64,000 nucleotides of DNA, from NCBI GenBank assembly GCA_003599755.1, contig QZJO01000009.1, forward strand, positions 22,140 to 86,139, in the 5' to 3' direction. The first letter of the stretch is position 1. Every line of letters starts with the position of its first letter. Position numbers and translations under genes: made by a program. The notes under the pieces are model-generated. The model had not been told where the DNA came from and searched no databases. It saw nothing but the letters and a program-made list of their open reading frames with translations. Below, piece by piece: positions 27,500 through 49,922 of this stretch. This DNA comes from Candidatus Parcubacteria bacterium. Lineage in GTDB: Bacteria; Patescibacteriota; Minisyncoccia; Sungbacterales; SURF-37.

Positions 27500-27528
27500 G
27501 GCGTTCGGCTCATTGTCATGTACCGTTT

Positions 27529-27912: not shown

Positions 27913-27916
27913 AGGA

Positions 27917-28320: not shown

Positions 28321-28636
28321 CGCGGATTTCGAGGGAGAATGGAATCGTCTGGCCGGCTACGATCCCCTCTCTTTTGCGCATTTCGGCCTTGAGCGGCAGA
28401 AGGTAAGCGCCGGCTTTGGTATCGGGAAAGATTGAAGTCCGCCATTTGCTTTTGCCGATTGTGACGTTGACCGGCAGCGAGCCCCACCCTCGCTTTATCA
28501 CGCCGAACACTTTCTTGATCTCATCGGATTGCTTTTTCGGCAAGGTCACGAAATGCCACCCCGCCATGCCGGGATAAAGCCATACTTTCGCCCGCATCTC
28601 GTAGCGGGTTTTCGGTGTGCGTTTGGAGGACTGCAT
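28316..28636 (-). CDS. DUF1905-domain protein
   Basis: 106 aa matching DUF1905 small proteins. Confidence 0.55.
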   Translation of the reverse strand: MQSSKRTPKTRYEMRAKVWLYPGMAGWHFVTLPKKQSDEIKKVFGVIKRGWGSLPVNVTIGKSKWRTSIFPDTKAGAYLLPLKAEMRKREGIVAGQTIPFSLEIRV

Positions 28637-28685
28637 CCGCAGTTTGCTGTTCTACTTTTTGTTTACGGTGCTATCGTCCGCGCAC

Positions 28686-28712
28686 CATTCCATCATTCGC
28701 GCGAATTAGAAA
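28686..28712. promoter_or_regulatory. Palindromic element ATTCCATCATTCGCGCGAATTAGA, copy 1
   Basis: Perfect 12-bp palindrome ATTCGCGCGAAT about 50 nt upstream of the DUF1905 gene start. A near-identical copy sits at 29418-29444. Confidence 0.5.
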
Positions 28713-29332
28713 TACCAAGGAAGAGGAGCAATCCCGAGCAATAGTATGGCGCATCGTATCATAACGCCTTTTTTTATTGCTTCGATATACTTGGGGTGAT
28801 CAATTTTATGCGGCGCATCTTCTACGATAATGAGCTTGGCTCGTTTCGCCAGCGCAGCAGTTTCTTCGCATCTTATTTTCAATTGCGGAAATCTGCGTCC
28901 CTCGACCGCCCCATAAAATATCGTCGTCGGCATCGTGAGGGTTTGGGCGATGGTTCGAGCGCTTCGAGTCCGAGTATCTTCGAATCTCCGCTTACCGATC
29001 AGTTTTCTAACCCAGGATTTCATAGCGGTTCGATCTTCGCGGAAATCTGGACTCAACGAGCACAAGTAGAGTTGTTTGGGCTTAAATTCGCCTGCGGTCA
29101 TAAAGGCGATAACCGCCCCATAAGAGAATCCGAGAAAATAGTCATTGCCAGTTCGATGTTCTCGGTAAAACTTTTTAAAATCAATGACATAGTCCGACAC
29201 CACGCGGTACTTCCATTTGATCGGGACCCCGAAGACTCGAAAACCTTTGTGTTTTAAGAATTTAATTAACCAACCATAATTCCGGCTCGATGTTTTTTCT
29301 TGCCAACCAGGAATGACAAAAATTGTTTTCAT
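28706..29332 (-). CDS. Alpha/beta hydrolase-fold protein
   Basis: 208 aa with GFSYG nucleophile-elbow motif. AT-rich. Confidence 0.6.
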   Translation of the reverse strand: MKTIFVIPGWQEKTSSRNYGWLIKFLKHKGFRVFGVPIKWKYRVVSDYVIDFKKFYREHRTGNDYFLGFSYGAVIAFMTAGEFKPKQLYLCSLSPDFREDRTAMKSWVRKLIGKRRFEDTRTRSARTIAQTLTMPTTIFYGAVEGRRFPQLKIRCEETAALAKRAKLIIVEDAPHKIDHPKYIEAIKKGVMIRCAILLLGIAPLPWYF

Positions 29333-29417
29333 TGTTACCCGCTATTTCTTATAAATCCGAGATAAAACTGCTATGGAATTATTGTGGGTCGTGGATTGTG
29401 TTAATTTCTATTTCTAC

Positions 29418-29444
29418 TATTCCATTATTCGCGCGAATTAGACA
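29418..29444. promoter_or_regulatory. Palindromic element ATTCCATTATTCGCGCGAATTAGA, copy 2
   Basis: Same 12-bp palindrome about 95 nt upstream of the hydrolase gene start. Confidence 0.5.
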
Positions 29445-29523
29445 AGGAGACGAGAGACGAGGAGGGAGAGAAAAATGGATGGAAGAAGATTCGAGGCGGC
29501 GCCAGCAGCGCCGCCTCCTCGGT

Positions 29524-30132
29524 TTACTGTTGCTCCTGTCGCTCGTGGATACCGTAGCGCCGGAGAAGATGCTCGCGTACCTTCCCGCCCTGTTCGTACG
29601 GCACAATGACCGCCGTGATTGGGATGCCGTAGAACTGGTTCAGGAATGTGAAGACGTCGTCCATCTGCTCCTTCCCGACCTTACCGGATCCGCTGCAGTC
29701 GGTGCAACCGGCCGCGATGAGGACCTTGTGCGGCGTCCCCACCTCGTAGACCACGTCGTGACGGCTGCGATCGGGTTCCCAGCATTCCGCATGAATGACG
29801 CGAAGATACCATCCGCGCAGGAAGCCCGGGAACGCCTTGCCGAGCTCACTGACCGTATGAGCGATGAGTGGATCCTGATAGGGCGACCCGGGATACCCGA
29901 CGAGCGCGATGCGGCGAGGCCGACCGTTCTCCTGGCTCGGAACCGAAAGACCGTACGGATGCTCGTCCAGATCGCAGATCTGCTCATGCGGCTTCGCGTC
30001 ATCATATACGATGCGCTGCGCCGACCGTTGCGCGACTTGAAGCAGGTACGACAGGCCAGCCATGGCTGGAGGTAGCGAGTCGCCATTGTGCACGGCGATC
30101 CGCTGGGAGGAGTTGGGCTTAGCGTGTCTCAT
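29524..30132 (-). CDS. Hypothetical protein, high-GC insert within the island
   Basis: GGAGG plus 4 nt plus ATG. Contains W/Y/H/C-rich segments (CTDCSGSGKVGKE) and no recognisable family. A 200-aa antisense ORF with its own RBS exists at 29479-30075, so the strand is not certain. Confidence 0.4.
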   Translation of the reverse strand: MRHAKPNSSQRIAVHNGDSLPPAMAGLSYLLQVAQRSAQRIVYDDAKPHEQICDLDEHPYGLSVPSQENGRPRRIALVGYPGSPYQDPLIAHTVSELGKAFPGFLRGWYLRVIHAECWEPDRSRHDVVYEVGTPHKVLIAAGCTDCSGSGKVGKEQMDDVFTFLNQFYGIPITAVIVPYEQGGKVREHLLRRYGIHERQEQQ

Positions 30133-30214
30133 ACGCCTCCTTGAAAGAGCATTTTTTTGTCTCGAGAGCTATTTTCTATTATATTATATTTATATAAATA
30201 GTCAAGTCTATCCT

Positions 30215-30310
30215 CGCATTCTCAAGAATGTTGGAATGTTCCTGTCCCCTGCTTCGGATCTGTGGATTCTCGGGGCGGCGGCGATGGAGGCGTCGAGGTT
30301 TTTGATGGTG
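30215..30310. repeat. Island repeat R3
   Basis: CATTCTCAAGAATGTTGGAATG ... CTGTCCCCTG ... GGGGCGGCGGCGATGGAGGCGTCGAGG is about 85 % identical to R5. Confidence 0.6.
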
Positions 30311-30446
30311 GATTTCTATGAATTGGTCGAGCCTGCGTTATTGCCTAGGACTAGGAATGTGCAGAAAATACTGTGTTTCAGAGCTTGGGTTGAAAATAAC
30401 CATAAATCCTAGTACCATTGAAACAGAAGAGTCGTTATGCCGTCAG

Positions 30447-30677
30447 ATGTATAGTGGCATGAAATTTGAGTTTACGCAGCATGCCCGGCAGCGCTGTAAG
30501 GAACGACGCATTAGATTTCAAGACGTCAAAGCGGTTGTCTCGAATCCCTCTACGACAAAGATAACTGCAGCCGGAACTATTGAAGCCCGGGGTAGAATTC
30601 GCAGCAAGACACTGGTAGTAATTTTCGCGGTGAAGCGAGATCTGCGTATAATAATTACGGCATATTATGAAGTTTAG
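30447..30677 (+). CDS. DUF4258-domain protein, toxin-like
   Basis: MKFEFTQHARQRCKERRI matches DUF4258. Its stop overlaps the start of the next gene. Confidence 0.6.
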   Translation: MYSGMKFEFTQHARQRCKERRIRFQDVKAVVSNPSTTKITAAGTIEARGRIRSKTLVVIFAVKRDLRIIITAYYEV

Positions 30678-30885
30678 CTACGACAAATACGCTGACGCAG
30701 TGTATATACGAGCGAAGTCGGCAAAGATTAAAAGAACTGAAAAATTTCAGGACGATATTCTTATTGACTTTGATGCGGAAAACAAAGTCCGTGGTATAGA
30801 GATATTGAATGTATCCGAATGGCTATCTAAAGATAAAACTCCAAGCGTGGAAATCGGAAACCGCAAAATACCCATTCCGGCGTAG
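30667..30885 (+). CDS. DUF2283-domain protein, antitoxin-like partner of DUF4258
   Basis: 72 aa with YDKYADAVYIR...DFDAENKVRGIEI (DUF2283), overlapping the upstream gene by 11 nt. Confidence 0.6.
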   Translation: MKFSYDKYADAVYIRAKSAKIKRTEKFQDDILIDFDAENKVRGIEILNVSEWLSKDKTPSVEIGNRKIPIPA

Positions 30886-30897
30886 TGAACGAGTCAA

Positions 30898-30925
30898 AGG
30901 CCGCTCCTTTAGAGAGCGGCCTTTG
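30898..30925 (+). terminator. Hairpin terminator after the DUF2283 gene
   Basis: AAAGGCCGCTC-CTTTAGAG-AGCGGCCTTT. Confidence 0.55.
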
Positions 30926-30940
30926 TATTTCAATCGTCAA

Positions 30941-31055
30941 TCCGGTTTATTCTGATGTTCCTAAGAAGATCGGAATAAATGGAGATGGGCGGAAGATGGA
31001 TGATCGGATCTTTTGTGGGTTTGCGGGGCGGCGGCGATGGAGTTTATGCTGCTTC
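30941..31055. repeat. Island repeat R4
   Basis: TCCGGTTTATTCTGATGTTCCTAAGAAGATCGGAATAAATGGAG...GGGGCGGCGGCGATGGAG combines the R1-type 5' part with the R3/R5-type 3' part. Confidence 0.6.
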
Positions 31056-31066
31056 AGCTATGACGG

Positions 31067-31462
31067 TTAGCTTTGGAACTCCGGCTTCGAAAGATATTCC
31101 TCGGGAATGATTTTCGCTTTGATGGTCTTTGCTCCCTGGAGATAGGCCTTTGCTAACCGATGCACGCCGTCGATGACAACAAGTCGACCGTTGAATCGCC
31201 GAAGGAGGATCGGATATTGCAAGTCGGTGTCATCGACGCGTTTTTGATGCGCTGATGTCCCCGCCTCTCCGCGGATGACTTGCCATGGCGTGAGATTCCA
31301 ATCATCGGTGCCGTCCTGTTCCCAGACCGGCATATCGAAATGCCATACAAGTTCGTCGATCGCCACATCGATAATCGGCAGCGGCAACTCGCGGAGTTTT
31401 ACGGTGTCTACAAATAAATTGAGGCCGGCATCGGTCAGTATTTTGGGCGGTGTTTGTTCCAT
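31067..31462 (-). CDS. ParB/sulfiredoxin-fold nuclease-domain protein
   Basis: VVIDGVHRLAKAY carries a DGxHR motif typical of ParB N-terminal (ParBc) nuclease domains. Confidence 0.5.
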   Translation of the reverse strand: MEQTPPKILTDAGLNLFVDTVKLRELPLPIIDVAIDELVWHFDMPVWEQDGTDDWNLTPWQVIRGEAGTSAHQKRVDDTDLQYPILLRRFNGRLVVIDGVHRLAKAYLQGAKTIKAKIIPEEYLSKPEFQS

Positions 31463-31506
31463 AAAAACATGAGAAGCTGCGGGGCTGATTGAAAGCGAGG
31501 AAATGT

Positions 31507-31625
31507 GACATTCTCACATTCTCAAGAATGTTGGAATGTACTCGTTTCCTGTGGCCTGTCCCCTGTTCTGGGCTGGTGGGTTTGCGGGGCGGCGGCGATG
31601 GAGGCGTCGAGGGGTTTAAGGGGCG
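31507..31625. repeat. Island repeat R5
   Basis: CACATTCTCAAGAATGTTGGAATG...CTGTCCCCTGTTCTGG...GGGGCGGCGGCGATGGAGGCGTCGAGGGG. Confidence 0.6.
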
Positions 31626-32018
31626 GATTTTATGGTTGCTGCCAAAGTGGGACGAGTTCCGAACGATAAAGTGGGATGAAATGTTCGAATTTCCTAGCGT
31701 TTCTCTCGACCAGATGCAGAAATTGCTTGCGCTCCAGTGATGCCGGATCAACATTCGAACCGGCTATTAGTTGAAACTGGCAGAGCAACGCTGCTGGTAT
31801 TTTGTAGTAATGAATGATAATGCCAGCGTGTTAGTATTTGCATTCACAATCTTCGCCATTATAGTCACTCTGTTTTTGCTGCCATCGGTTTTTGGACTCT
31901 ACGCTACGCGCCAACCGTGGCGATTTGAAGAATGGTGCCTCGGCGTTTACGGTAAAGAACGATGTGAACGAGAGCGCCATCTTCTCCGGTGGGAGTTTTC
32001 TGAATTTCAGTAAAAGAT

Positions 32019-32798
32019 TCACTTTCGAGTTCTTAAGTCTTTCAAAAACTTCGAAAATGTCTTCTGTAAATTCGGAAGGCCGCTTAGTGAATCGTTCCCA
32101 AATTTTATCAGTAGAATCGCTCCGGGGACTGCGAAGACAATATACGACAAGAAGTAGAATAGCCACCAGCTTTTATCTGTATACTTTGGAATTACAACTA
32201 AACTACCGCCGAGTCGCACAGCGGCAATTTCCGGTGAATCAATAACTTGCCCGACATTAGAAATCGCACAGAATATTTCCTGCCATCTTTGCGAAACTTC
32301 CGTGATACGAATAGAGGACAAAACTTGTCTGCGCTGCCCGGGATCGATTTCAACTGGCTCACCATTGCCCGGAGGGGTACATTTCAGTGTAAATGCTGTC
32401 GATGTAGCAAAAATTGGCTCGTCTTGTGTTCCCGAAAATTGATCTAGCGCGAGATGATTTTCAATTTCGATGTTGTATTCAATTCTCGGAGATGACCTTA
32501 ACCATCCGATGAATTCGTTTATTTCTTTTTGTTCAACCGCTTCTCGGACCGCTTGAGCAATTTGATCATCAGCTGGATAGAGGATCTCATTCCCCTCTCG
32601 AGCAATTGAGGCTTCGAAACCATATGATGATTCGTTGAATGAGAAGCTAATACCCTTGACGGACGGCGAAATGAAAAAATAACCAACCTCCAAGAGCAAC
32701 GCGACCAGAAGAACACCGAAAATCGGCCAAAAATGCCTAAAGAAAATTTTCAAAAATCTGAAAACTTTCTGGCTAGCCTCGCCAAATTTTGAAAGCAT
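32019..32798 (-). CDS. Hypothetical membrane protein, AT-rich
   Basis: 259 aa with two N-terminal TM helices. No recognisable domain. Confidence 0.45.
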   Translation of the reverse strand: MLSKFGEASQKVFRFLKIFFRHFWPIFGVLLVALLLEVGYFFISPSVKGISFSFNESSYGFEASIAREGNEILYPADDQIAQAVREAVEQKEINEFIGWLRSSPRIEYNIEIENHLALDQFSGTQDEPIFATSTAFTLKCTPPGNGEPVEIDPGQRRQVLSSIRITEVSQRWQEIFCAISNVGQVIDSPEIAAVRLGGSLVVIPKYTDKSWWLFYFLSYIVFAVPGAILLIKFGNDSLSGLPNLQKTFSKFLKDLRTRK

Positions 32799-32911
32799 AG
32801 CGGTTAATCACTTCGGTCTTGTCGTTTCAAATGGGAAAATTTTGTAATATCGCGCAATTTCTTTCTCCCGCGAAGGACTAAAGGACTTGCGGGCGAGGCT
32901 CTCTAGAAGTC

Positions 32912-33763
32912 CTATCTGGCAGCAATAGTGCGAGGCACATTTAAACCAGAACTGAAAAAGAGGATCTCTTTGCCCACTCGTGGTCCGCGCGCAGTATGCA
33001 AAAGATGGTGACGCTTTGATCTAAGACCGGCATAAATCTTTCGAATCTCGGCATGATCATCGTAGGAAACAATCCACCTCACCCCTTTGATGCTTCTTAC
33101 TACTTTACCGACGGCTACATGGTCATCCTTGTCGTAATGGTTCATGTATAAAGACTCGCCTTTTAGATAGTACGGAGGGTCAAGGTAGAATATTGTTTTT
33201 TTGTTCTCTAACCTCCTCGCAATTTTCCGAACTAAATCCATTGCGTCCATATGTTTGACATGGATTTTGCTTTTATGCTTGGCAATTTTCTTTATGCGCT
33301 TTATCAGCTCCTTTTTGTTGAAGCGACAATTCAGCTTGTACTCGCCCGTCTGATGAATATTCCCGATAGGGCCTCCGTTGAGAATCCCCGAGACATTTGT
33401 TCTATTCAGGAAGAAAGTAGCAAAGCCGAGCTTAAGCAAAGGTTCGTTCTCTTTATTTTGAAGAATCGCGCGCTGCCTCTTCCATGTTGTAATATTTACC
33501 CGTGTCGCGCGGATGAGTTTTATCAACTCTTCCGAGCGGTGAACTGCGGAGTACCAAAAAGCATAAATAGCCCTATCCTTATCGTTTATTGTTATCTCTG
33601 AAACGTACCCCTCAAACAAAAGGTGGAGAGCCACAGATGCACCTCCGGCATACGGCTCTACATAATGTCCGTTGATATCGTTGCGCTCACAGATTTTTGC
33701 AATAAACTTTGCGAGCTCATTTTTTCCTCCCGGATATCGAAGCGGTGAATAAAATTTTTTCAT
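32912..33763 (-). CDS. dam: DNA adenine methyltransferase (Dam/D12 class, N6-adenine)
   Basis: N-terminal LRYPGGK (motif I/FxGxG region) and DPPY catalytic motif. Confidence 0.85.
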   Translation of the reverse strand: MKKFYSPLRYPGGKNELAKFIAKICERNDINGHYVEPYAGGASVALHLLFEGYVSEITINDKDRAIYAFWYSAVHRSEELIKLIRATRVNITTWKRQRAILQNKENEPLLKLGFATFFLNRTNVSGILNGGPIGNIHQTGEYKLNCRFNKKELIKRIKKIAKHKSKIHVKHMDAMDLVRKIARRLENKKTIFYLDPPYYLKGESLYMNHYDKDDHVAVGKVVRSIKGVRWIVSYDDHAEIRKIYAGLRSKRHHLLHTARGPRVGKEILFFSSGLNVPRTIAAR

Positions 33764-35136
33764 GACAACTTGTTTGTGTCTAAGCTGCTCAGGAGATCGT
33801 TCGGCTCTTGCAGCATAAACTCGATCAAGGGTATCAGATTCTCGCCTTGTGTTCTCGCATCACTCGCGGACGCGCCTACCTTATAATTATGCACTACTTG
33901 ATGTAGCTTTTCGAGGTCGAATCCACGGAAAGCGTTTTTTGTACCAGTGTCGGTGATCAGCTCGGTAAATTTTTCTTTTAACACGGCAAAGTTGGTGTAA
34001 GTGTTTCTCCTACCATGCCTGTCGTAGAAGGCGGAATGAAAATTGTTGTACGATGCAAGCTCCTTATTTTTGTATTTCGTCTCCGCAACAACATATTTCA
34101 GCACGGCCTCAAATGTAACACGAACAAGAGCAACCTTCGCGTTCGCAAACTGCGAGTTGTCGAGGTTATAACATTCGTTAACGAGGCGCTTTAATTTCGG
34201 TGCAACTTGTTTCCGCTCATACGCCGGTCGTGTCTTTACGGATCCTCTTTTACCCGGAGTGATTGGCGTAGTTGTTGGGAGAGATGTGGGCGTTGTACCT
34301 TGCTCGACCTCTGCTTTCGGCAGTTCTTTTGGCGTAAAGCCATGGGTAGACAACCTCTTGAGAAAATCCCCGTGTTCGTGATCCACATCACCATGTGAGG
34401 TTTTAGGCTTAGCGTTAAGATATGCAACGAGGGCGCTGATATACGAAGTAAACTGCGCTTGATCTAGTATCTCGATAACGTATGCAGGCTTGCCCTTGAA
34501 CTGATAGCCGCACTGCTTACTGTACGCAAACAGACGTTCAAAAATAATGGTTTTGCCACCGGCGTTCCCTTTTCCACGACGCAACAATTTCTTTAGGTCT
34601 TCTTCTCCAATCTTTACAGCCTCGTAGTAGAAGCTAGCGAGCTTAATGAGCCGCGATGGGTTTGAGTCGATCTCGCGTATTACTTCTTCTGAGGAACCGG
34701 ATTGGTGCATTTCGTACGCTTTGAGGGCTTTTGCAATCGGATCCCATTCCCTAAAGAGGCTATGCATGTGCTGTTCTTGGATGCGTCGATCAAGCTCTTT
34801 CTCGTCGCGGTACACCAGCACAGGTAGCTGTTTTATATCTACCTTTGCGAGCTCAAGCCCGTACTTCCTTTGGTTACGTAGGGCTTTGACGGCCGCACAT
34901 CTGCGATTACCATCGCGCACAAGAAAATTCTTGCCTTTTGGCACAACCCACAAAGCTTGATCTGGGTAGAAATAACCACGATCAGAGATATTCTTTGCCA
35001 CTTCTTCAGCCGCCTCTGTATAAAGTAGGTATTCAACAAGATCTTCCTCTCTTCCGCTGCCACTATAAAGCTCTGCGAACCTATGATTATTAGGATCGAG
35101 TATGAGCTGAGTTATATTCTTATATTCGATTTTCAT
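33760..35136 (-). CDS. ParB N-terminal-domain protein (458 aa), translationally coupled to dam
   Basis: ILDPNNHRF ... LVRDGNRRCAAVKAL resembles the ParB NPxQPR and GERRxRA boxes. It overlaps the dam start by 4 nt. Confidence 0.55.
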   Translation of the reverse strand: MKIEYKNITQLILDPNNHRFAELYSGSGREEDLVEYLLYTEAAEEVAKNISDRGYFYPDQALWVVPKGKNFLVRDGNRRCAAVKALRNQRKYGLELAKVDIKQLPVLVYRDEKELDRRIQEQHMHSLFREWDPIAKALKAYEMHQSGSSEEVIREIDSNPSRLIKLASFYYEAVKIGEEDLKKLLRRGKGNAGGKTIIFERLFAYSKQCGYQFKGKPAYVIEILDQAQFTSYISALVAYLNAKPKTSHGDVDHEHGDFLKRLSTHGFTPKELPKAEVEQGTTPTSLPTTTPITPGKRGSVKTRPAYERKQVAPKLKRLVNECYNLDNSQFANAKVALVRVTFEAVLKYVVAETKYKNKELASYNNFHSAFYDRHGRRNTYTNFAVLKEKFTELITDTGTKNAFRGFDLEKLHQVVHNYKVGASASDARTQGENLIPLIEFMLQEPNDLLSSLDTNKLS

Positions 35137-35186
35137 GCTTCGTTCTAGATTTGCTATTCCGATTTTGAAAGGCTAGTACTAAAAGG

Positions 35187-38027
35187 TTATGCGCTACTGG
35201 AAGCCGTCGTACGCTTGTAAGCGCTATGTGCTCGCACAGATTTTGTTTTTACCGCTTCACGACCCACATAAACCCCGTATAGCCCAAAAAGAAATTCGAG
35301 ACGTTCCGCTTCCGTTTTGAATGAACGCTTGCCGTAGCAGGCATCAACTGCACGATCGAGCGCGCGATGTGCTTCGAGAAGTTTCAGCGGCATGGTTTCG
35401 GGATTGTAGAGATCAGCGAGCGTGGCGTTCGGGAATTGTTTTCTAGCATCAAGCACGGACTGCGCCGCTTGCTCTACTTTTTCTTTTTGCTCTTTCGTAG
35501 GATTTTCCGGCCATGGAAAGTTGTTATATACGATATCTTTTGAATAACGGTAGTCGGACTTGAGACGGCCGGCTACGGCTCGGACCCATGTCATATGCAT
35601 TTCGCTTTGAAGAACGCCGAAGTGATAGAGAGAGGCGTTAGGAACGATCTTCAAAAGATTGCTGGCAAGCGTATCCGGTTCGATAAAGCCAATTGGAATA
35701 TAATGCCGCCGCTCAGATGAAACTTCTGGTATGACTAAATATGTATCCTTCGGCATATTCTCCACATGGAATCGCGTCGGCGTTTCCGCTAATTTTCGTG
35801 TCGGAGCGCTTTTGCTCAAGCGACGGAATTCAGCTACCGCCTGAATGCGTCGAAGTACTTCAGGCATGGCCGCAATTTCTTCGGGCGCGGCGTCGCCGAG
35901 CCAGAGACACCAGCGTTCATATCCGTTCAGAAATTCATCAGCGCCGATCCAGCGCTTAAAGAATTTTTCTGCCTTCGGTTCTTTTTCAAGAAATGCTTCT
36001 TTTTCTTCTGGTGTGAAAAGATAGAGTCCCCCATCGATCGGTTTATTGCCAATTCCGATTTCCGGAACGTCCGCAATCGGCTTGCCTCGACTTTCAACCA
36101 GTACATTTGGTGCATCCACGAGATATGCATTAATCTGCTGCGCCAGAATCTCGTGCGGTTCACTGCGGATATCCGCATATTCATAAATACGGGGGCGTGG
36201 GTGCGGGGACGTGCCAAACCCGATAATGACGCAGTAGACCGCAGCTTTGCCCGGCGCTTCATTGCTCCATTTGAACGTCCGATGGGCAAAATGAATCTTG
36301 ATTCCCCGTTGATTGAGGAGCCGCCACAGCACAGCGACCTGTTCGCCCTGGGTAATCGAGTTTGTTGAGACAAAGGCACAGGCGATAGCCGTTCCTTGAA
36401 TGTATGCTGATGCCTTGGCGTACCAGCCACAGACGAAATCGAGCGTCCCGGATCCTGGCGCATTTTGAAAAAGATCCGTGATTTCCTTCCGCTGCGTATC
36501 GGACATAAGCTTCGAGCCGACGAAGGGCGGATTGCCGAGGACGTAGGTCAATTGTGATTTCGGTACGGCACTTTCCCAGTCGAGTGTGAGTGCATTATCT
36601 TCAACGATGTGCGGCTGTTCTGTGAGTGGGAGTTTGGCAAACGGCCTTCCGAAGTGGTCGCCAAGCTCGGTATTCGCAATGTGATCAGCGAGCCAAAGCG
36701 AGAGCCGGGCAATGGCCGCTGGAAATGATTCTATCTCAATGCCGAACATGCGTTCGATGGAAAGCTTCGAAATTTTCGTAATATCAAATGTTCCGGGCGC
36801 TTCACTTCCCCTGCGGATATCTTCTACTTTTTCCGCGTAGAACCGTTTGATGATCTCGAGTTCAATCCGGCGGAGTTCGCGATACGCTACCACAAGGAAA
36901 TTCCCGCAGCCGCAAGCCGGGTCAAGAAGCGCTATTGCCGCAATTTTGTTCCATAGGCGATCGAGTTTTGCATGGCTCGTACCGGCATCAGCGAGTTCTT
37001 TATGGAGATCATCGAGAAAAAGCCCGCTGATGACTTTTAGAATATTCTTTTCGGACGTATAGTGCGCTCCCAGATCATGGCGCGCTTTTTCATCCATCAC
37101 TGATTGGAACATGGATCCGAAGATGGCCGGCGATATTCCGGACCAGTCGAAGGACATACAACTCAAAATATTCTCGCGGATACTGACGGTGCCGAATACG
37201 GAAGATAGATGCTCAGCGAACAGGCCACCATTCACGTATGGCAAAGCGGCTAAATCTTCATCGAGCGTCGTCTGACGCTTTTCGATGGGCGTATTGAGAA
37301 CCTCGAATATCGCTCCGAGATGATAGCCGATATCCGAACCATCAATCTCGGTTCTATCCTCCAAGTACATTTTGAACGAGTCGCGATTGAAAATTCCGGT
37401 ATCATCAGCAAAAAAGCAGAATACCAGACGGGTGAGGAGTGTGCTTATTTCATTGGGTGGATAGTTTGATGCGCGGAGCGCGTCATAGAGCTTCCCGATC
37501 GCGCTTACCGCTTTGATCGTAATCGGGCTTTCTTCTTTGTAGGTTCTCGTCTGGAATCCGAGGATAAACGCAAAGCGACGGACGTGCTTGGGAAAATCCG
37601 AAAGCAGGCACTGGAATTGCTCGATTCCGTTTTCACCCTCTAGATCATAGAGACGGATAAGGATGAAGTTTGAAACAATGATGTAGCGCGGTTTTTCTTC
37701 TTCGGGAAGCGCATCAAAGTACGACCCCGCTTGGTCATAGGCACTGTCAAGATTTTCGCCGACCGATTTATGCTCGACAATGAGGACTCCAGGCCAAAAG
37801 AGATCAATAAAACCAGTATTTCCCTTCAGCCGTTTTACGTGCTGTTGATAGCGCGCAACGGTTCTTCGGCGGATACCAAATACCTCGAAAAATTCATTCC
37901 AAAAAGAAGCGTACTCCGCTTCTCGCTCTTCATTTTCCCATTCACGGGCGAATTGCACCGCGCGGTTCCGAATTTCGTTCCAGTTCAGCATGCACGTTTC
38001 TAATGCAGTTTCTGCCGATAAAATCAC
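35187..38027 (-). CDS. Type IIL restriction-modification enzyme, MmeI family (single-chain nuclease, methyltransferase and target-recognition)
   Basis: N-terminal PD-ExK region with FWNEFFEVFGI...GFIDLFWPGVLIVEHKS matches the MmeI-family signature. The central gamma-class N6-adenine MTase motifs are NPPF (LGNPPFVGSK) plus a SAM-binding segment. 946 aa, ~48 % GC. Confidence 0.8.
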   Translation of the reverse strand: MILSAETALETCMLNWNEIRNRAVQFAREWENEEREAEYASFWNEFFEVFGIRRRTVARYQQHVKRLKGNTGFIDLFWPGVLIVEHKSVGENLDSAYDQAGSYFDALPEEEKPRYIIVSNFILIRLYDLEGENGIEQFQCLLSDFPKHVRRFAFILGFQTRTYKEESPITIKAVSAIGKLYDALRASNYPPNEISTLLTRLVFCFFADDTGIFNRDSFKMYLEDRTEIDGSDIGYHLGAIFEVLNTPIEKRQTTLDEDLAALPYVNGGLFAEHLSSVFGTVSIRENILSCMSFDWSGISPAIFGSMFQSVMDEKARHDLGAHYTSEKNILKVISGLFLDDLHKELADAGTSHAKLDRLWNKIAAIALLDPACGCGNFLVVAYRELRRIELEIIKRFYAEKVEDIRRGSEAPGTFDITKISKLSIERMFGIEIESFPAAIARLSLWLADHIANTELGDHFGRPFAKLPLTEQPHIVEDNALTLDWESAVPKSQLTYVLGNPPFVGSKLMSDTQRKEITDLFQNAPGSGTLDFVCGWYAKASAYIQGTAIACAFVSTNSITQGEQVAVLWRLLNQRGIKIHFAHRTFKWSNEAPGKAAVYCVIIGFGTSPHPRPRIYEYADIRSEPHEILAQQINAYLVDAPNVLVESRGKPIADVPEIGIGNKPIDGGLYLFTPEEKEAFLEKEPKAEKFFKRWIGADEFLNGYERWCLWLGDAAPEEIAAMPEVLRRIQAVAEFRRLSKSAPTRKLAETPTRFHVENMPKDTYLVIPEVSSERRHYIPIGFIEPDTLASNLLKIVPNASLYHFGVLQSEMHMTWVRAVAGRLKSDYRYSKDIVYNNFPWPENPTKEQKEKVEQAAQSVLDARKQFPNATLADLYNPETMPLKLLEAHRALDRAVDACYGKRSFKTEAERLEFLFGLYGVYVGREAVKTKSVRAHSAYKRTTASSSA

Positions 38028-38334
38028 ATATTTGCTGTATTAAATCAAGAGCTCCCGCAAACCAATATGCAGTTGCATGAATTTGGCGGTTTACTTAAAA
38101 ATCTTGGAATATTTAAACCAACGAGGACTACCGCAGCTTACGGTAGTCCTCGAAGCCTCAAAAATTATTTTTTTCTCGAGGGTTTTGTATCGCCGTGTCC
38201 CGGTTTCGGAACTCTCTCTACGACATGCGTGTCGGGATAGCGACGCGCTTTCTTCACGGTCGTAAATTCGCCGTTGCGAGCATCCCGGCCACGAAGAGTA
38301 GTTTTTGAGTCCTTACTCATTACGGTTATGGACG

Positions 38335-38607
38335 CTAGAACGTCCTGCCGCGAAGCCAGGTCAATCCCTCCTGGTCATCTATTCGTCCCCACCACTCTCT
38401 CGTCAAGCCAAAAACGATGAGTTCGTCATTGCGATCGAGATGAGGGGCGAGGCGATCATAGATCTGCTGTGCGCTCAGTGAGGTATCAACGAGCCATACG
38501 GACGTGGTGTGATGCCACCACGATCCAGAAAGGCTTCGAATCGCTTCGTGAAGAGAGCTGTAATCGCGTCCCGGTGAGTGAAGAGTATAGGAGATGATGT
38601 GAATCAC
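38335..38607 (-). CDS. Hypothetical 90-aa protein
   Basis: ORF only. A 51-aa basic ORF follows at 38166-38320. Confidence 0.35.
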   Translation of the reverse strand: MIHIISYTLHSPGRDYSSLHEAIRSLSGSWWHHTTSVWLVDTSLSAQQIYDRLAPHLDRNDELIVFGLTREWWGRIDDQEGLTWLRGRTF

Positions 38608-38830
38608 CTGTTCTCAGATACTGTTGATAGCTGGAAACTGCCGCTGATATGATGGATGCACAGTAAGCGCGCCAATCGACCGGGAGTCAAACTGAAGGCC
38701 ATCATACCATTTCGTTTGATTCCGCTTGGTTGCCTGCGGTACTCAGCTTCAGTGCCCACAAAAACCGCCGCATGGCGGTTTTTGTCGATTCTAAAGAAAT
38801 ATATTTATGCGTACGTCAGGGAGGGGCATA

Positions 38831-39211
38831 TTAATTTAAATCTTTCAGGGAAATACTTTTGACCACGCTACCGTGATAAACTTTTCTCCTGTAATACAAG
38901 GCTAATCCGAGGAATAGGACGGTCAGCGTCGTAAAAACGCAGGCGCTCCACCAAAGAGCGAGCGGCTGGGAGGGCTCAATGGCGTAAGCAGTCCAGAAAC
39001 CGACTGCAATAGGTGCAATAAGCGCTACGAGCCATTGGAACAACTCGTAATGTCTAAGTTCATTCGCTTGCACAAGTTCCATGCCGATTTCATCGGGGAA
39101 TCGGACGGTTACTCTTGTTTGCCGCCCTATATGGGGAGCTGATTTATTATCAGAAGATTCTTCTTTTATGCGCCCGTTCTTCATCTTCGATCGGGATAAT
39201 TTGGTAATCAT
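38831..39211 (-). CDS. Small membrane protein downstream of lexA, candidate SOS-induced toxin
   Basis: Basic N-terminus followed by two TM helices (FQWLVALIAPIAVGFW ... CVFTTLTVLFLGLALYY). It either overlaps the lexA 3' end by 62 nt or starts at ATG 39082. Confidence 0.4.
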   Translation of the reverse strand: MITKLSRSKMKNGRIKEESSDNKSAPHIGRQTRVTVRFPDEIGMELVQANELRHYELFQWLVALIAPIAVGFWTAYAIEPSQPLALWWSACVFTTLTVLFLGLALYYRRKVYHGSVVKSISLKDLN

Positions 39212-39839
39212 CCATCCGTTCGACCTGAATCACCTGAATAACCTTTCCGAATATTTGGAAGTCCCGCCGTAGAATTATGGCTTTATGCTCGGAGTCCGAG
39301 GTAACTGGGGTGAGTACGATGGCATTATTGCCGAATGCGATTTTCTTAATCACGGCATTGTCGTCGATAATGGCAACGACGATATCTCCGGTTTGAACAT
39401 TCTGCGTCATTTCGGTAAGAACGAAATCGCCGTCGTGGATTCCGGCATCTTCCATCGACGAACCGACCGCTCGGATAACATAAACATTTTCACGGCCGGA
39501 GATCAGGCTCGCGGCCACGGGGATATATTCGTCGAACTGCCGGTCGGCAATCACGCTCGGACTGCCACACCCTGCGGAGGCGAATACTGGCACCTGCAAG
39601 ATTTCCTCGCGAGCTGGATCATCTTCGACAATTTGTATACCGCGGCGGGAAAACCGACCTCGTCGAATTAGCCCTTTACTTTCGAGTGCTTTCAAGTACT
39701 GGGTCACTGACCGAATGCTTTTGGCGCCGACTGCCTTTCCGATTTCAGCCAAAGTAGGTGCTTCTCCCCTCTGGGCAAGACATGCCTTAATAAAATCGTA
39801 AACGCATCGCTGATTTGCCGTGAGCAGAGCCGGTTTCAT
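39150..39839 (-). CDS. lexA: LexA-family repressor (S24 peptidase) with an extended C-terminal tail
   Basis: wHTH N-terminus, an Ala-Gly cleavage-site region (ASAGCG), Ser (GSSM) and Lys (IKKI) catalytic dyad context, and a ~40-aa extra C-terminal extension. Confidence 0.8.
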   Translation of the reverse strand: MKPALLTANQRCVYDFIKACLAQRGEAPTLAEIGKAVGAKSIRSVTQYLKALESKGLIRRGRFSRRGIQIVEDDPAREEILQVPVFASAGCGSPSVIADRQFDEYIPVAASLISGRENVYVIRAVGSSMEDAGIHDGDFVLTEMTQNVQTGDIVVAIIDDNAVIKKIAFGNNAIVLTPVTSDSEHKAIILRRDFQIFGKVIQVIQVERMDDYQIIPIEDEERAHKRRIF

Positions 39840-39847
39840 CGGGAGTA

Positions 39848-39884
39848 ATTATAGCATCCACCTTTTCGCATTGCAAGATCCACC
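39848..39884 (-). promoter_or_regulatory. Predicted sigma70-type promoter of lexA
   Basis: On the lexA strand: -35 TTGCAA, 17-nt spacer, -10 TATAAT ending 9 nt before the ATG, so the transcript is probably leaderless. GGTGGAT direct repeats flank the -35 box. Confidence 0.45.
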
Positions 39885-39911
39885 ATATCCTACCCAGCCG
39901 CCCAAGGCTAC

Positions 39912-40361
39912 TTACCTCCTCCGCTCCTCCCACTCCGGCACGTCTTCGCCAACAATATAGAAAAAATGGAATGCGCCGGTGGGGCCGATCCAGCGAAAGG
40001 TTTTGACCAGGATCGCGCGGCGCTTGGCGTAGGGCAGCTTCCTGATGGAACGGATGAAAGCGGCAAAGGAGCCGTGCTCTTTTTGCAGGCCCTGGATGAT
40101 GCGCGCGTTTTCTATTGTGCCGCGGATCTTCGCGCCGTTCCTAATAATGCCCGGATCGGCGAGCAAGCGCAGAACGTCACGCGCGCCCATCTTCGCCACT
40201 TTCTGAACATTGAAATTATGGAATGCCTTTCGGAAATGCGGCCACTTGTTGCGCACGACTTCCCAGGAAAACCCCGCCTGGAATACGGATTGCGCCAGCG
40301 CTTCAAGATAGCCGTTGTCGTCCTTCGGGCGCTTGGGCGTGGGAATGTAGTAGTCGTACAT
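39912..40361 (-). CDS. tag: DNA-3-methyladenine glycosylase I
   Basis: Full-length similarity to Tag, including a conserved aromatic/Glu core (FHFFYIVGED...). Confidence 0.75.
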   Translation of the reverse strand: MYDYYIPTPKRPKDDNGYLEALAQSVFQAGFSWEVVRNKWPHFRKAFHNFNVQKVAKMGARDVLRLLADPGIIRNGAKIRGTIENARIIQGLQKEHGSFAAFIRSIRKLPYAKRRAILVKTFRWIGPTGAFHFFYIVGEDVPEWEERRR

Positions 40362-40404
40362 AGCCGTATTGTTCGCCGTTTGAACTCCCTATTCGCAGCA
40401 TCAT

Positions 40405-40426
40405 CCAAACCAAAACCGCCCGCAAG
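40405..40426. repeat. 22-nt exact repeat CCAAACCAAAACCGCCCGCAAG, copy 1
   Basis: An identical 22-mer is found at 41233-41254. Both lie upstream of minus-strand transcription units. Confidence 0.6.
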
Positions 40427-40430
40427 CTCT

Positions 40431-40472
40431 AAAAAAACAACCCGCCCCGGCGCATGCGAGCGCGCGGGGCGG
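40431..40472 (-). terminator. Rho-independent terminator on the minus strand
   Basis: On the minus strand the hairpin CCGCCCCGCGCGCTCGCATGCGCCGGGGCGG is followed by TTGTTTTTTT. It lies downstream of the small membrane gene 40540-40677. Confidence 0.6.
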
Positions 40473-40539
40473 TGGCTTTTCGTCCACGAAGGTACTGCTC
40501 TGACTGGTGCAGAACCAGCGCGTGGCTAGGCTGCCGGCA

Positions 40540-49299: not shown

Positions 49300-49316
49300 T
49301 GCGCAGGGCAGGATTC
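49300..49316 (-). repeat. 17-nt direct repeat of the tRNA-Tyr 3' end (att-core-like scar)
   Basis: TGCGCAGGGCAGGATTC is identical to 49506-49522, which is the discriminator plus acceptor 3' strand plus T-arm 3' half of tRNA-Tyr. Confidence 0.6.
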
Positions 49317-49505
49317 CGGCGTTACGCGCCTAGAACCGTCGCGGCACGCGCACTCTGTGCGCTAACACCGCCTTTGAAACCTTGCGGTTTCAATACTTCC
49401 GCCATGGGGAAACTTCCGTTTCCCCCACCCCCCTTCCCGAGGTTCGAATCTTGCCCGTTCATCAAAGTAGACAGAACCCGCGAGGGGTCCAGTATACTTC
49501 GTTAA

Positions 49506-49588
49506 TGCGCAGGGCAGGATTCGAACCTGCGTAGCCGTAAGGCGCCAGATTTACAGTCTGGTGTAATTGACCGCTCTACCACCTGCGC
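49506..49588 (-). tRNA. tRNA-Tyr (anticodon GUA), class II with long variable arm
   Basis: The reverse complement folds as acceptor GCGCAGG/CCTGCGC, anticodon stem-loop CCAGA-CTGTAAA-TCTGG, a 14-nt variable arm, and T arm GCAGG-TTCGAAT-CCTGC. Confidence 0.85.
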
Positions 49589-49741
49589 AAATTACTTCGT
49601 AATTTCGGCATGCTGCCGAGTCAATTACACCATGCCTTCGGCATATGTAATTGTTCCCAGGCATCCTACTGCGTCTGCCCTGTGCTGTAGCTTCGAGCGT
49701 ACTCGTAATGCCCGTTCAAAGCAAAGCCCTTTGCTTTGAAC

Positions 49742-49760
49742 CCGCTCTACCACCTGCGCG
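49742..49760 (-). repeat. Duplicated 5' fragment (19 nt) of tRNA-Tyr
   Basis: CCGCTCTACCACCTGCGC[G] repeats the acceptor 5' strand and D-arm start of tRNA-Tyr. It lies about 150 nt upstream of the intact gene. Confidence 0.6.
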
Positions 49761-49803
49761 AATAACTCCGTAATTACCGTACCTGATTTTCCCGCGCTTT
49801 CGA

Positions 49804-49875
49804 AGCCACCTCTCGGATTTGAACCGAGGACCTACTGTTTACAAAACAGTTGCTCTGCCGCTGAGCTAAGGTGGC
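49804..49875 (-). tRNA. tRNA-Thr (anticodon UGU)
   Basis: Reverse complement GCCACCTTAGCTCAGCGGCAGAGCAACTGTTTTGTAAACAGTAGGTCCTCGGTTCAAATCCGAGAGGTGGCT folds as a 72-nt cloverleaf. Confidence 0.85.
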
Positions 49876-49922
49876 AACGAAAGGGCGGGACTGCTCTGCC
49901 GGCAGAAGAGTCTGCCGCGTTG

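What the first reader, a model, noticed from the sequence alone, without database searches (positions are those of the whole stretch)
49300..49875. tRNA-Tyr locus with att-like scars: 17-bp direct repeat of the tRNA 3' end, a duplicated 5' fragment and an intervening structured segment
The 3'-terminal 17 nt of tRNA-Tyr (TGCGCAGGGCAGGATTC on the plus strand) recur exactly 206 bp away. This is the hallmark of an integrase attL/attR core, yet the two copies enclose only about 190 nt of hairpin-rich sequence.

The first 19 nt of the tRNA are duplicated 150 nt upstream of it. The intervening 150 nt carries several UUCG/TTCG-loop hairpins (AATTAC-TTCG-GTAATT, ATGCC-TTC-GGCAT) and an inverted copy of the D-loop segment GTCAATTACAC.

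The region looks like the footprint of repeated integration and excision at this tRNA, or a small non-autonomous element. It adjoins the 8-kb cassette block.
Basis: seen in the sequence. Interest (0 to 1): 0.6.

Follow-up and report, generated by a model that had tools for sequence, protein, structure and literature searches.

The report
tRNA-Tyr locus with RtT-like RNA
The repeated tRNA-Tyr pieces are real; the downstream one ends a conserved folded element built like E. coli RtT RNA, and the upstream one matches sites where related groundwater bacteria carry a small nuclease gene, so tRNA genes here look like repeated insertion targets.

Summary
The window is from a Parcubacteria (CPR) genome.

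Downstream repeat: the 17-mer at 49300-49316 is the 3' end of a ~157-nt element (49300-49456, minus strand).
- Its 5' end is an inverted copy of the tRNA-Tyr T-arm and pairs with the 3' copy.
- This closing helix encloses two hairpins, both GNRA-capped in the window.
- Six other CPR loci carry the same element. Five sit just after tRNA-Tyr, and in the cleanest ones the element ends in a copy of the local tRNA-Tyr 3' end.
- The structure shows covariation.
- The architecture matches E. coli RtT RNA in the tyrT operon, but the Rfam RtT model gives no match.

Upstream repeat: it is 34 nt (leader plus tRNA positions 1-18), probably part of a decayed tRNA-Tyr copy. In relatives, a GIY-YIG nuclease gene lies between such a fragment and the intact tRNA. 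The window has no such gene.

tRNA-Thr has a 13-bp leader/trailer helix like the cassettes nested inside older tRNA-Thr genes in relatives.

No integrase is nearby. The attL/attR reading is only partly supported. Function and mechanism remain inferred.

The parts
49300..49456 (-). Element B: RtT-like structured element downstream of tRNA-Tyr (closing helix P0, hairpins P1 and P2, variable 3' hairpins, single-stranded tail UGCGCA)
   Evidence: Family of 7 distinct members by nhmmer and covariance model. RNAalifold structure. 91% of cells paired against at most 63% when partners are slid; 8 pairs changed on both sides. Fold z-score -3.8.
49300..49316 (-). Direct copy of the last 17 nt of tRNA-Tyr (GAATCCTGCCCTGCGCA). 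3' strand of P0 plus the tail. With GTTC at 49333-49336 it makes a 21-nt copy.
   Evidence: (D3).
49317..49332 (-). 16-nt hairpin insert (TAGGCGCGTAACGCCG) that splits the T-loop-derived GTTC|GAATCC of the 3' copy
   Evidence: Read. L028 has the uninterrupted 21-nt copy.
49442..49456 (-). 5' strand of P0: inverted copy of the tRNA-Tyr T-loop/T-stem (GGGCAAGATTCGAAC)
   Evidence: I3: 17 nt, 94% complementary to 49512-49528.
49406..49425 (-). P1 hairpin GGGGAAAC-GGAA-GTTTCCCC (GNRA loop)
   Evidence: 4 pairs changed on both sides.
49374..49393 (-). P2 hairpin TTGAAACC-GCAA-GGTTTCAA (GNRA loop)
   Evidence: 2 pairs changed on both sides.
49457..49505 (-). tRNA-Tyr trailer/spacer with a weak terminator-like hairpin (49474-49490)
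   Evidence: Relatives have clear terminator hairpins at this position.
49506..49588 (-). Intact tRNA-Tyr(GUA), long variable arm, no encoded CCA
49589..49675 (-). 87-nt spacer of hairpins built partly from direct and inverted copies of tRNA-Tyr D-loop sequence (long hairpin at about 49620-49653; leader hairpin 49590-49604)
   Evidence: I5, I14; z -4.75. No similarity to other loci apart from tRNA pieces.
49676..49759 (-). Decayed tRNA-Tyr copy. Positions 1-18 are identical (49742-49759). Positions 19-45 are replaced by a perfect 13-bp hairpin (49714-49741). Variable-arm and T-loop remnants follow.
   Evidence: (D2, I2). The extension beyond 18 nt is only marginal (108 of 2000 shuffles). Not called a tRNA.
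49760..49775 (-). Duplicated 16-nt leader of the decayed copy (AATTACGGAGTTATTC against AATTACGAAGTAATTT)
   Evidence: D2.
49777..49789 (-). Possible remnant of the 3' side of an older, invaded tRNA-Thr (AAATCAGGTACGG; compare L152 TAAACCGTAGGT)
   Evidence: Side-by-side reading. Weak.
49790..49803 (-). Trailer arm of the tRNA-Thr cassette (TCGAAAGCGCGGGA)
   Evidence: I1; 11 of 12 paired.
49804..49875 (-). Intact tRNA-Thr(UGU)
49876..49890 (-). Leader arm of the tRNA-Thr cassette (TCCCGCCCTTTCGTT), complementary to the trailer arm. Similar to the arms TCCCGCTCTTTCCTC/ATGAAAGGGCGGGA in L152.
   Evidence: (I1).
49892..49901 (-). CGGCAGAGCA: possible D-arm remnant of the invaded outer tRNA-Thr (L152 has AACGGCAGAG directly 5' of the arm). 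It also forms part of a palindrome after the upstream ORF.
   Evidence: (D10, I8). Not significant on its own (56 of 500 shuffles).

Best explanation
The region is the tRNA-Thr(UGU)-tRNA-Tyr(GUA) operon of a Parcubacteria (CPR) genome. It carries the products of three separate tRNA-targeted duplication or insertion events. Each type recurs in other CPR genomes.

(1) Downstream of tRNA-Tyr lies a ~157-nt structured element (49300-49456, minus strand).
- Its 5' end is an inverted copy of the tRNA T-loop/T-stem.
- Its 3' end is a direct copy of the last 17-21 nt of tRNA-Tyr.
- The two ends pair into a 15-bp closing helix around two GNRA-capped hairpins, leaving UGCGCA single-stranded.
- This is the design of E. 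coli RtT RNA, the tyrT-operon repeat that ends in the last 19 nt of tRNA-Tyr.
- Inferred: it is transcribed with or next to tRNA-Tyr. Its tRNA-like 3' end is matured by the tRNA 3'-processing machinery. The closing helix keeps the redundant 3' fragment from mispairing with the functional tRNA.

(2) Upstream lies a decayed tRNA-Tyr copy with its leader. In relatives, this position holds a small GIY-YIG nuclease gene between a 5' tRNA-Tyr fragment and the intact gene.
- Inferred: an endonuclease-type element inserted into tRNA-Tyr, brought a replacement 5' part of the gene, and has since lost its ORF here.

(3) tRNA-Thr sits between complementary 13-bp leader and trailer arms. It is the same kind of tRNA cassette that lies nested inside older tRNA-Thr genes in relatives.

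Shown: the anatomy, the recurrence, the covariation and the architectural match to RtT. Inferred: transcription, processing, the sequestering role and the insertion mechanism.
For: Family of the downstream element:
- Window, L125, L113 (=L145), L092, L088, L028 and L098 (nhmmer; covariance model).
- Five of the six others lie 17-130 nt after tRNA-Tyr.
- The 3' copy follows the local tRNA. L028 has 21/21 identity with a different acceptor, CCTGCCCA.
- P0, P1 and P2 are predicted by RNAalifold. They are 91% paired against at most 63% when partners are slid, with 8 pairs changed on both sides.
- GNRA loops lie on the tRNA strand.

E. coli comparison:
- rttR ends exactly at the CCA of a 19-nt tRNA-Tyr 3' copy.
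- The Rfam RtT consensus closes with GGGGAAGGAU x AUCCUUCCCC, an inverted copy paired with the tRNA-end copy, and leaves a free 3' tail.

Upstream part:
- A 5' fragment followed by a PF01541 GIY-YIG ORF and then the intact tRNA-Tyr occurs in L090, L100, L106, L122, L132 and L137 (L133 truncated), and in L147 and L149.
- Four of five looked-up homologues lie next to a tRNA.

tRNA-Thr:
- The arms of the window and L152 are alike.
- The tRNA-Thr that is intact in L001/L143 is interrupted in L152 by such a cassette.
- Orphan tRNA-Thr pieces flank about a third of 44 tRNA-Thr(UGU) loci.
Against: - There are no expression data, so an RNA role for the downstream element is inferred.
- Terminator-like hairpins lie between tRNA-Tyr and the element in L092, L028, L098, L113 and L088. 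No promoter-like site was found in the window. Co-transcription is therefore uncertain.
- The Rfam RtT model does not match the element in the window or the three relatives tested, even at E<=10. The resemblance to RtT may be convergent.
- The element was found in only 7 of about 68 tRNA-Tyr loci.
- L088's copy is not next to a tRNA in the 166 nt available upstream, and it has a different tail.
- L098 and L125 carry extra 3' fragments or a 43-nt duplication, which look like DNA-level insertion events.
- The window has no GIY-YIG gene or detectable remnant.
- The decayed-copy alignment beyond 18 nt is marginal.
- The GIY-YIG ORFs are 80-90 aa catalytic domains with no DNA-binding domain, unlike proven homing endonucleases.
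Confidence: 0.55

Rival explanations
1. The two 17-mers are the attL/attR cores of a tyrosine-integrase element that integrated at the 3' end of tRNA-Tyr. The 190 nt between them is what remains after most of the island was deleted, or it is an integrase-less satellite.
For: - A direct repeat of a tRNA 3' end is the classic integrase signature.
- L098 has two successive displaced 3' ends.
- L125 duplicates 43 nt that include the trailer.
- DNA beyond tRNA-Tyr is strain-variable in L152/L153, and L152 has a recombinase there.
- Contigs of L001 and L002 end just after tRNA-Tyr.
Against: - No integrase lies in or near the interval.
- The recombinase in L152 is a serine recombinase, which does not make 17-21-nt repeats.
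- The interval is the same conserved, covarying structure in 7 loci rather than variable cargo.
- The 3' copy is part of that structure.
- The element's motifs gave no hits in viral contigs.
- E. coli has the same layout with no integrase.
Confidence: 0.12
2. The downstream element is a non-autonomous mobile DNA element. It is MITE-like, with 15-bp terminal inverted repeats derived from the T-loop palindrome, or it is a mini-circle recombining at the T-loop. A nuclease or recombinase encoded elsewhere moves it. Its hairpins are then single-stranded-DNA or protein-binding structures, not a functional RNA.
For: - It has terminal inverted repeats (I3).
- Its distribution among tRNA-Tyr loci is patchy.
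- In L098 both arms carry the TTCGATT variant although the local tRNA has TTCGAAT.
- Solo 5' arms without the body occur in L082 and L125.
- The duplicated trailer/terminator after the element in L028 and L092 fits insertion of a unit that begins in the T-loop.
Against: - The window holds only one copy in 64 kb, and no locus holds more than one.
- There is no target-site duplication of fixed length.
- GNRA tetraloops on the tRNA strand and conserved purine-rich joining regions suggest RNA.
- No partner enzyme co-occurs. Loci with the GIY-YIG gene lack the element.
Confidence: 0.18
3. This is plain local tandem duplication (unequal crossing-over or replication slippage) of tRNA-Tyr and its flanks, followed by neutral decay. 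No mobile element and no function are involved.
For: - The 34-nt repeat includes the leader, and the upstream copy aligns colinearly with the whole tRNA.
- The E. coli tyrT repeats have long been viewed as products of unequal recombination (own knowledge).
Against: - Neutral decay does not explain a core of the downstream element conserved with compensatory changes across lineages whose tRNA-Tyr acceptor stems differ.
- It does not explain the inverted tRNA pieces.
- It does not explain the regular replacement of tRNA arms by perfect hairpins.
- It does not explain foreign inner tRNAs with different acceptor stems inside resident ones.
Confidence: 0.1

Closest known systems
E. coli RtT RNA (rttR; Rfam RF00391), the 178-bp repeats of the tyrT-tyrV operon
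   Same: - It lies directly downstream of tRNA-Tyr on the same strand.
- Unit lengths are similar: 178 nt in E. coli, 206 nt here.
- It ends in a direct copy of the tRNA-Tyr 3' end, 19 nt in E. coli and 17-21 nt here.
- An internal inverted copy of the T-stem/acceptor region pairs with that copy to close a multi-helix structure, leaving a free 3' tail.
   Different: - There is no detectable sequence or covariance-model similarity.
- It is a single copy rather than four.
- No CCA is encoded.
- The internal helices differ (two GNRA hairpins here).
- There is no tpr-like small ORF.
- The phylum is different (CPR, not Enterobacteria).
- Terminator-like hairpins often separate it from the tRNA.
tRNA 3'-end att sites of tyrosine-integrase islands and prophages
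   Same: A direct repeat of the tRNA 3' end flanks non-tRNA DNA, and the tRNA gene stays intact.
   Different: - There is no integrase.
- The interval is only 189 nt.
- The interval is a conserved structured element rather than cargo.
- An additional 5'-end duplication exists that integrases do not produce.
Free-standing GIY-YIG homing endonucleases in tRNA gene clusters (phage T4 SegB; PMC2330249), and GIY-YIG-encoding non-intron insertions in CPR rRNA genes (PMC11270868)
   Same: In relatives, a GIY-YIG gene sits beside or inside a stable-RNA gene without an intron, with patchy distribution.
   Different: - The CPR ORFs are 80-90 aa catalytic domains only.
- They are flanked by a partial copy of the tRNA, so the gene stays whole.
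- The window itself has lost, or never had, the ORF.
Archaeal disrupted tRNA genes (split, multi-intron and permuted tRNAs with complementary leader helices; PMC4390854, PMC4033280)
   Same: tRNA halves are separated by inserted sequence bounded by complementary arms. Insertions occur in the D, anticodon and T loops.
   Different: - These are Bacteria.
- The insert carries a complete tRNA of the same identity.
- Outer halves are mostly decayed.
- No bulge-helix-bulge motif is evident at the junctions by eye.

Membership tests
RtT RNA (RF00391) | Lies directly downstream of a tRNA gene, on the same strand, in the tRNA operon | tested here: met
   The element starts 49 nt after tRNA-Tyr on the minus strand. 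Five of six other members are also just after tRNA-Tyr.
RtT RNA (RF00391) | The 3' end is a copy of the 3'-terminal ~19 nt of the upstream tRNA | tested here: met
   17 exact nt, or 21 nt when the hairpin insert is allowed for. E. coli reference checked.
RtT RNA (RF00391) | Closing helix between an internal inverted copy and the tRNA-end copy, with a free 3' tail | tested here: met
   Rfam consensus structure compared with P0 of the element.
RtT RNA (RF00391) | Scores at or above the gathering threshold (45 bits) with the family covariance model | tested here: not met
   No RtT match at E<=10 in the window region or in L125, L098 and L113. E. coli copies score 133-137 bits.
RtT RNA (RF00391) | Released as a discrete stable RNA by processing of the tRNA transcript | not testable with these tools
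   Needs RNA-seq, Northern blot or RACE.
Integrase attL/attR at a tRNA gene | Direct repeat of the tRNA 3' end bounding the element | tested here: met
Integrase attL/attR at a tRNA gene | Integrase gene inside the bounded interval or adjacent to it | tested here: not met
   The interval is 189 nt. Flanking ORFs are Ham1-like, GtrA-like and several without any Pfam match, and none is a recombinase.
Integrase attL/attR at a tRNA gene | Variable cargo between the repeats in related genomes | tested here: not met
   The same conserved structured element lies between the repeats in 7 loci.
GIY-YIG homing-endonuclease element | GIY-YIG ORF present | tested here: not met
   tblastn with 7 relatives' ORFs gives nothing significant anywhere in the window. 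The ORF is present in relatives.
GIY-YIG homing-endonuclease element | Sequence-specific DNA-binding domain fused to the nuclease domain | tested here: not met
   Relatives' ORFs are 79-90 aa and match only PF01541, with weak overlapping PF10544 and PF13455 matches.
GIY-YIG homing-endonuclease element | Cleaves the empty target (the tRNA-Tyr gene) and is copied into it | not testable with these tools
   Needs biochemistry or population data.
MITE-like non-autonomous transposon | Terminal inverted repeats | tested here: met
   15-17-nt arms, 94% complementary (I3).
MITE-like non-autonomous transposon | Many dispersed copies with a fixed target-site duplication | tested here: not met
   One copy in 64 kb, and never more than one per locus in 713 kb searched. 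No fixed-length target-site duplication.

The most novel reading that the evidence does not exclude
CPR bacteria have an undescribed way of turning over tRNA genes.
- Cassettes made of a complete tRNA bounded by complementary arms, and small GIY-YIG nuclease genes carrying a partial tRNA copy, insert into the D, anticodon, variable or T loops of resident tRNA genes of the same identity.
- This replaces the function of the resident gene and leaves nested shells, up to four tRNA-Thr layers in L002.
- The leftover fragments are locked into inert hairpins.
- The RtT-like element after tRNA-Tyr is a conserved RNA born from such a 3'-end duplication.
- On this reading, E. coli RtT is a second, independent example of the same principle.
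Probability: 0.35. Interest if true: 0.85.

Novelty: new variant of a known kind. Interest (0 to 1): 0.62.

Why it matters
RtT RNA has been known in E. coli since 1991, and its origin and role remain unclear (own knowledge; secondary account in PMC4986893). Rfam matched RtT only in the E. coli locus I used as reference. An element with the same design but unrelated sequence, at the same tRNA in a very distant and tiny-genome lineage, carries two implications:
- The design (a tRNA 3'-end copy paired to its own inverted copy) is either functional or an unavoidable by-product of duplicating tRNA ends.
- There is now a comparative set to test which of the two holds.

The relatives also show complete tRNA genes nested inside broken tRNA genes, and GIY-YIG genes embedded in partly duplicated tRNA genes. 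I found no description of either in Bacteria. The one CPR study I checked describes rRNA-gene insertions and never mentions tRNA (PMC11270868).

If these are active elements, they bear on three things:
- tRNA annotation in CPR genomes.
- Why metagenomic assemblies break at tRNA loci.
- How essential single-copy RNA genes survive invasion.

Tried and rejected
- Exact look-ups of both flanking proteins found nothing. The source was identified later through a homology search: NCBI 'Candidatus Parcubacteria bacterium', locus tag C4552_02395. No close relative exists in the databases; the next best matches are 76% (partial) and 59%. A presence/absence test in sister strains was therefore impossible.
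- Two viral-contig scans with motifs of the downstream element gave 0 hits.
- Rfam at E<=10 shows only noise apart from the tRNAs. YrlA (18.8 bits) and sX4 (16.7-25.3 bits) merely overlap the tRNA itself.
- A tmRNA-like reading, prompted by GGAUUCGAAC-GGG, was rejected. ARAGORN finds no tmRNA, and there is no acceptor 5' strand.
- An omega-RNA or guide-RNA reading of the 3' copy was rejected because no TnpB-like ORF is adjacent.
- An integron attC reading was rejected. There are no GTTRRRY ends, and the covariance model finds no other copy in the neighbouring gene block.
- tblastn for GIY-YIG remnants in the 150-nt spacer found nothing.
- blastn of the spacer against all loci found only the tRNA piece.
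- The CCCGC..GCGGG hairpins that replace tRNA arms in relatives are generic hairpins of these genomes. They are not a dedicated element.
- The idea that the outer tRNA halves are spliced into working tRNAs remains open. Only L002's outermost pair rejoins into a valid tRNA-Thr; the other joined pairs do not.
Full report
**Observation.** ARAGORN and Rfam agree on tRNA-Tyr(GUA) at 49506-49588 and tRNA-Thr(UGU) at 49804-49875, both on the minus strand and both without encoded CCA.
- The 17-mer TGCGCAGGGCAGGATTC occurs only at 49300-16 and 49506-22, even at up to 3 mismatches.
- The 5' repeat is 18 exact nt. It is part of a 34-nt, 91% repeat that includes 16 nt of leader (D2).
- The inverted D-loop piece is real (I5).
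- tRNA-Thr has a 22-nt leader/trailer inverted repeat (I1).
- No second tRNA-Tyr, and no tRNA-like hit on the fragments, appears at E<=10.
- Both flanks fold far better than shuffles.

**Organism and context.** The neighbours are a 147-aa EF-Ts and ribosomal protein S2. The upstream 216-aa ORF is 100% identical to a 'Candidatus Parcubacteria bacterium' protein on a 264-kb contig.
- The nearest genomes share the order EF-Ts, membrane ORF, tRNA-Thr, tRNA-Tyr.
- No recombinase lies near the locus. The flanking ORFs are Ham1-like, GtrA-like and several without any Pfam match.
- A low-GC island at 27.5-40.5 kb, whose annotated genes (about 33-40 kb) encode an MmeI-type restriction-modification enzyme, a DNA methyltransferase and a LexA-like protein.
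- The '8-kb cassette block' is a run of genes sharing promoter-like and terminator modules.

**Downstream repeat.** A metagenome scan with the tRNA-Tyr 5' pattern gave 65 loci. nhmmer and a covariance model then found the 49300-49456 segment in six other distinct loci: L125, L113 (=L145), L092, L088, L028 and L098. Five of them lie 17-130 nt after tRNA-Tyr. All seven share one plan:
- a 5' arm that is the reverse complement of the T-loop/T-stem (GGAGGATTCGAAC);
- a purine-rich joiner (GGGAAAGGGGUC);
- hairpin P1 (GNRA loops in 5 of 7 members);
- the joiner GGUGGAAGU;
- hairpin P2 (GCAA loops in 4 of 7 members);
- a variable hairpin region;
- a copy of the tRNA-Tyr 3' end from the T-loop onward.

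The 5' arm pairs with the 3' copy. RNAalifold predicts P0, P1 and P2. On the model-based alignment, 91% of cells pair against at most 63% for slid partners, and 8 pairs change on both sides.

The 3' copy follows the local tRNA. In L028, whose tRNA-Tyr has a different acceptor stem, the copy is 21/21 identical. In the window, the 21-nt copy is split by a 16-nt hairpin insert, which is why only 17 nt are contiguous. Older copies have diverged (L092, L113). L098 carries a further displaced 3' fragment.

**Closest known thing.** The E. coli K-12 annotation shows tyrT, tyrV and then rttR, a 171-nt small RNA.
- The sequence shows 178-nt units, each ending in AATCCTTCCCCCACCACCA, the last 19 nt of tRNA-Tyr. 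rttR ends exactly at that CCA.
- Rfam's RtT consensus closes with GGGGAAGGAU paired to AUCCUUCCCC, an inverted copy paired with the tRNA-end copy, and leaves a free tail.
- That is the design of the CPR element.
- RtT was described as an RNA released from the tyrT transcript during tRNA processing (Bösl and Kersten 1991, cited in PMC4986893). I could not read the original paper.
- The RtT model does not match the CPR element. It works like RtT but is not a member of RF00391.

**Upstream repeat.** In L090, L100, L106, L122, L132, L133 and L137, a 5' fragment of tRNA-Tyr lies about 300 nt upstream of the intact gene.
- The fragment covers positions 1-14 up to about 1-50. It often has a GC hairpin inserted in the D-loop, and its anticodon arm is replaced by a hairpin.
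- Between the fragment and the intact gene is an 80-90-aa ORF that matches PF01541 GIY-YIG at E 1e-12 to 1e-19.
- Homologues found in the large protein database lie next to a tRNA in 4 of 5 cases looked up: tRNA-Tyr twice, tRNA-Pro once and tRNA-Ser once.
- In L148, a full tRNA-Pro copy follows the ORF with its D- and T-arms replaced by hairpins.
- In three loci the ORF has no stop codon of its own. It reads into tRNA-Tyr and stops at the TAA formed by the anticodon and position 37. The ORF plus the 5' part of the tRNA therefore behaves as one unit.

The window has the fragment, the leader and a perfect 13-bp hairpin in place of positions 19-45, followed by weak colinear remnants of the variable arm and T-loop. 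It has no GIY-YIG gene or remnant. I read this as an ORF-less relic of such an element, or as a plain decayed tandem copy. The data do not separate the two.

**tRNA-Thr.** In L001/L143, L002/L087, L082, L113, L152-155 and L156, an intact tRNA-Thr(UGU) sits between complementary arms inside the halves of another tRNA-Thr, up to three shells deep.
- The tRNA-Thr that is intact in L001 is interrupted in L152 by a further cassette. That cassette's arms, TCCCGCTCTTTCCTC/ATGAAAGGGCGGGA, resemble the window's TCCCGCCCTTTCGTT/TCGAAAGCGCGGGA.
- Both loci have GGCAGAG just 5' of the arm.
- Leader/trailer helices of at least 10 of 12 bp occur at 6 of 37 tRNA-Thr(UGU) loci. They occur at none of 56 tRNA-Tyr or 21 tRNA-Thr(GGU) loci.
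- Orphan T-loops and D-arms flank about a third of tRNA-Thr(UGU) loci.
- Inner and outer tRNAs have different acceptor stems, so the inner ones are foreign.
- Only L002's outermost pair rejoins into a valid tRNA.

**Mechanism (inferred).** tRNA genes in this clade are repeatedly hit by insertions that bring a replacement for what they break: the whole tRNA for the cassettes, the 5' part for the GIY-YIG units, and the 3' end for the downstream element. The leftover fragments are near-identical to parts of the working tRNA and could mispair with it. The recurring perfect hairpins, the complementary arms and the closing helix would each lock such fragments away. The conserved, GNRA-capped core of the downstream element suggests it has additionally become, or always was, a functional RNA, matured at its tRNA-like 3' end as RtT is.

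**Weak points.**
- There are no expression data.
- Terminator-like hairpins lie between tRNA-Tyr and the downstream element in several loci, and no promoter was found.
- Distribution is patchy.
- L088's copy has a different tail and no adjacent tRNA in the sequence available.

**Literature.** Full-text searches found nothing on GIY-YIG genes within bacterial tRNA genes, nested bacterial tRNA genes, or tRNA introns in Patescibacteria. CPR rRNA genes are known to carry non-intron insertions encoding GIY-YIG proteins, but that paper does not mention tRNA (PMC11270868). T4 SegB is a free-standing GIY-YIG homing endonuclease in a tRNA cluster (PMC2330249).

**Verdict.**
- The integrase-scar reading is partly right in spirit (insertion footprints and a small non-autonomous element) but wrong in detail.
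- The window's copy is a degenerate example.
- The comparative picture it opens is unusual: an RtT-like element in CPR, GIY-YIG-linked tRNA duplications and nested tRNA genes.

Noticed in passing
window 27500-40500: A low-GC island (0.43-0.52 against about 0.60) carries an MmeI-type restriction-modification enzyme (35187-38027, minus), a D12 adenine methyltransferase (32912-33763, minus) and a weak DndB-like ORF. A LexA-like repressor (39150-39839, minus) lies at its edge. It is probably a horizontally acquired defence island.
   Followed up: partly
Most ORFs have no Pfam match. The last terminator ends 16 nt from the RtT-like element.
   Followed up: partly
L002 6920-7440; L152 3700-4060; L001 6900-7160; L082, L113, L156: Complete tRNA-Thr(UGU) genes, bounded by 10-22-bp complementary arms, sit nested inside halves of other tRNA-Thr genes, up to three shells deep. 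The acceptor stem differs in each layer. L152 shows one more layer than L001 at the same site. L002's outermost halves rejoin into a perfect tRNA-Thr.
   Followed up: partly
L122, L090, L132 (oriented tRNA-Tyr neighbourhoods): The GIY-YIG ORFs have no stop codon of their own. They read 14 codons into tRNA-Tyr, all in the same frame, and end at the TAA formed by anticodon GUA plus A37.
   Followed up: no
L148 1740-1830: After a GIY-YIG ORF next to tRNA-Pro(GGG) lies a full-length tRNA-Pro copy. Its D-arm and T-arm are each replaced by a CCCGCC...GGCGGG hairpin, while the acceptor and anticodon arms are kept. This is a patterned substitution, not random decay.
   Followed up: no
L152 4560-5348 against L153 4600-5215: Two samples with identical upstream genes diverge about 130 nt after tRNA-Tyr. 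L152 has a serine recombinase gene there. A 26-nt 5' fragment of a different tRNA-Tyr type (intact in L156) lies upstream of the tRNA-Tyr in L152. Contigs L001, L002 and L152-L155 all end shortly after the tRNA-Thr/tRNA-Tyr locus (L155 before tRNA-Tyr).
   Followed up: partly
L100 (oriented 45-700): Two exact tandem 328-nt copies of [tRNA-Tyr 5' fragment with D-loop hairpin + GIY-YIG ORF] precede the intact tRNA-Tyr. This may be a real amplification or an assembly artefact.
   Followed up: no
L088 167-291: A member of the RtT-like family ends in ...CCTCCCGCTTCCGCCA, a different acceptor-like tail with encoded CCA. It has no tRNA in the 166 nt available upstream. It may belong to another tRNA or be an orphan.
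   Followed up: no
L082, L104, L119 (about 40 nt after tRNA-Tyr); L125 oriented 933-944: Solo inverted copies of the T-arm (15-bp perfect in L082) follow tRNA-Tyr without the body of the RtT-like element. They form a long hairpin with the tRNA's own T-arm region.
   Followed up: no
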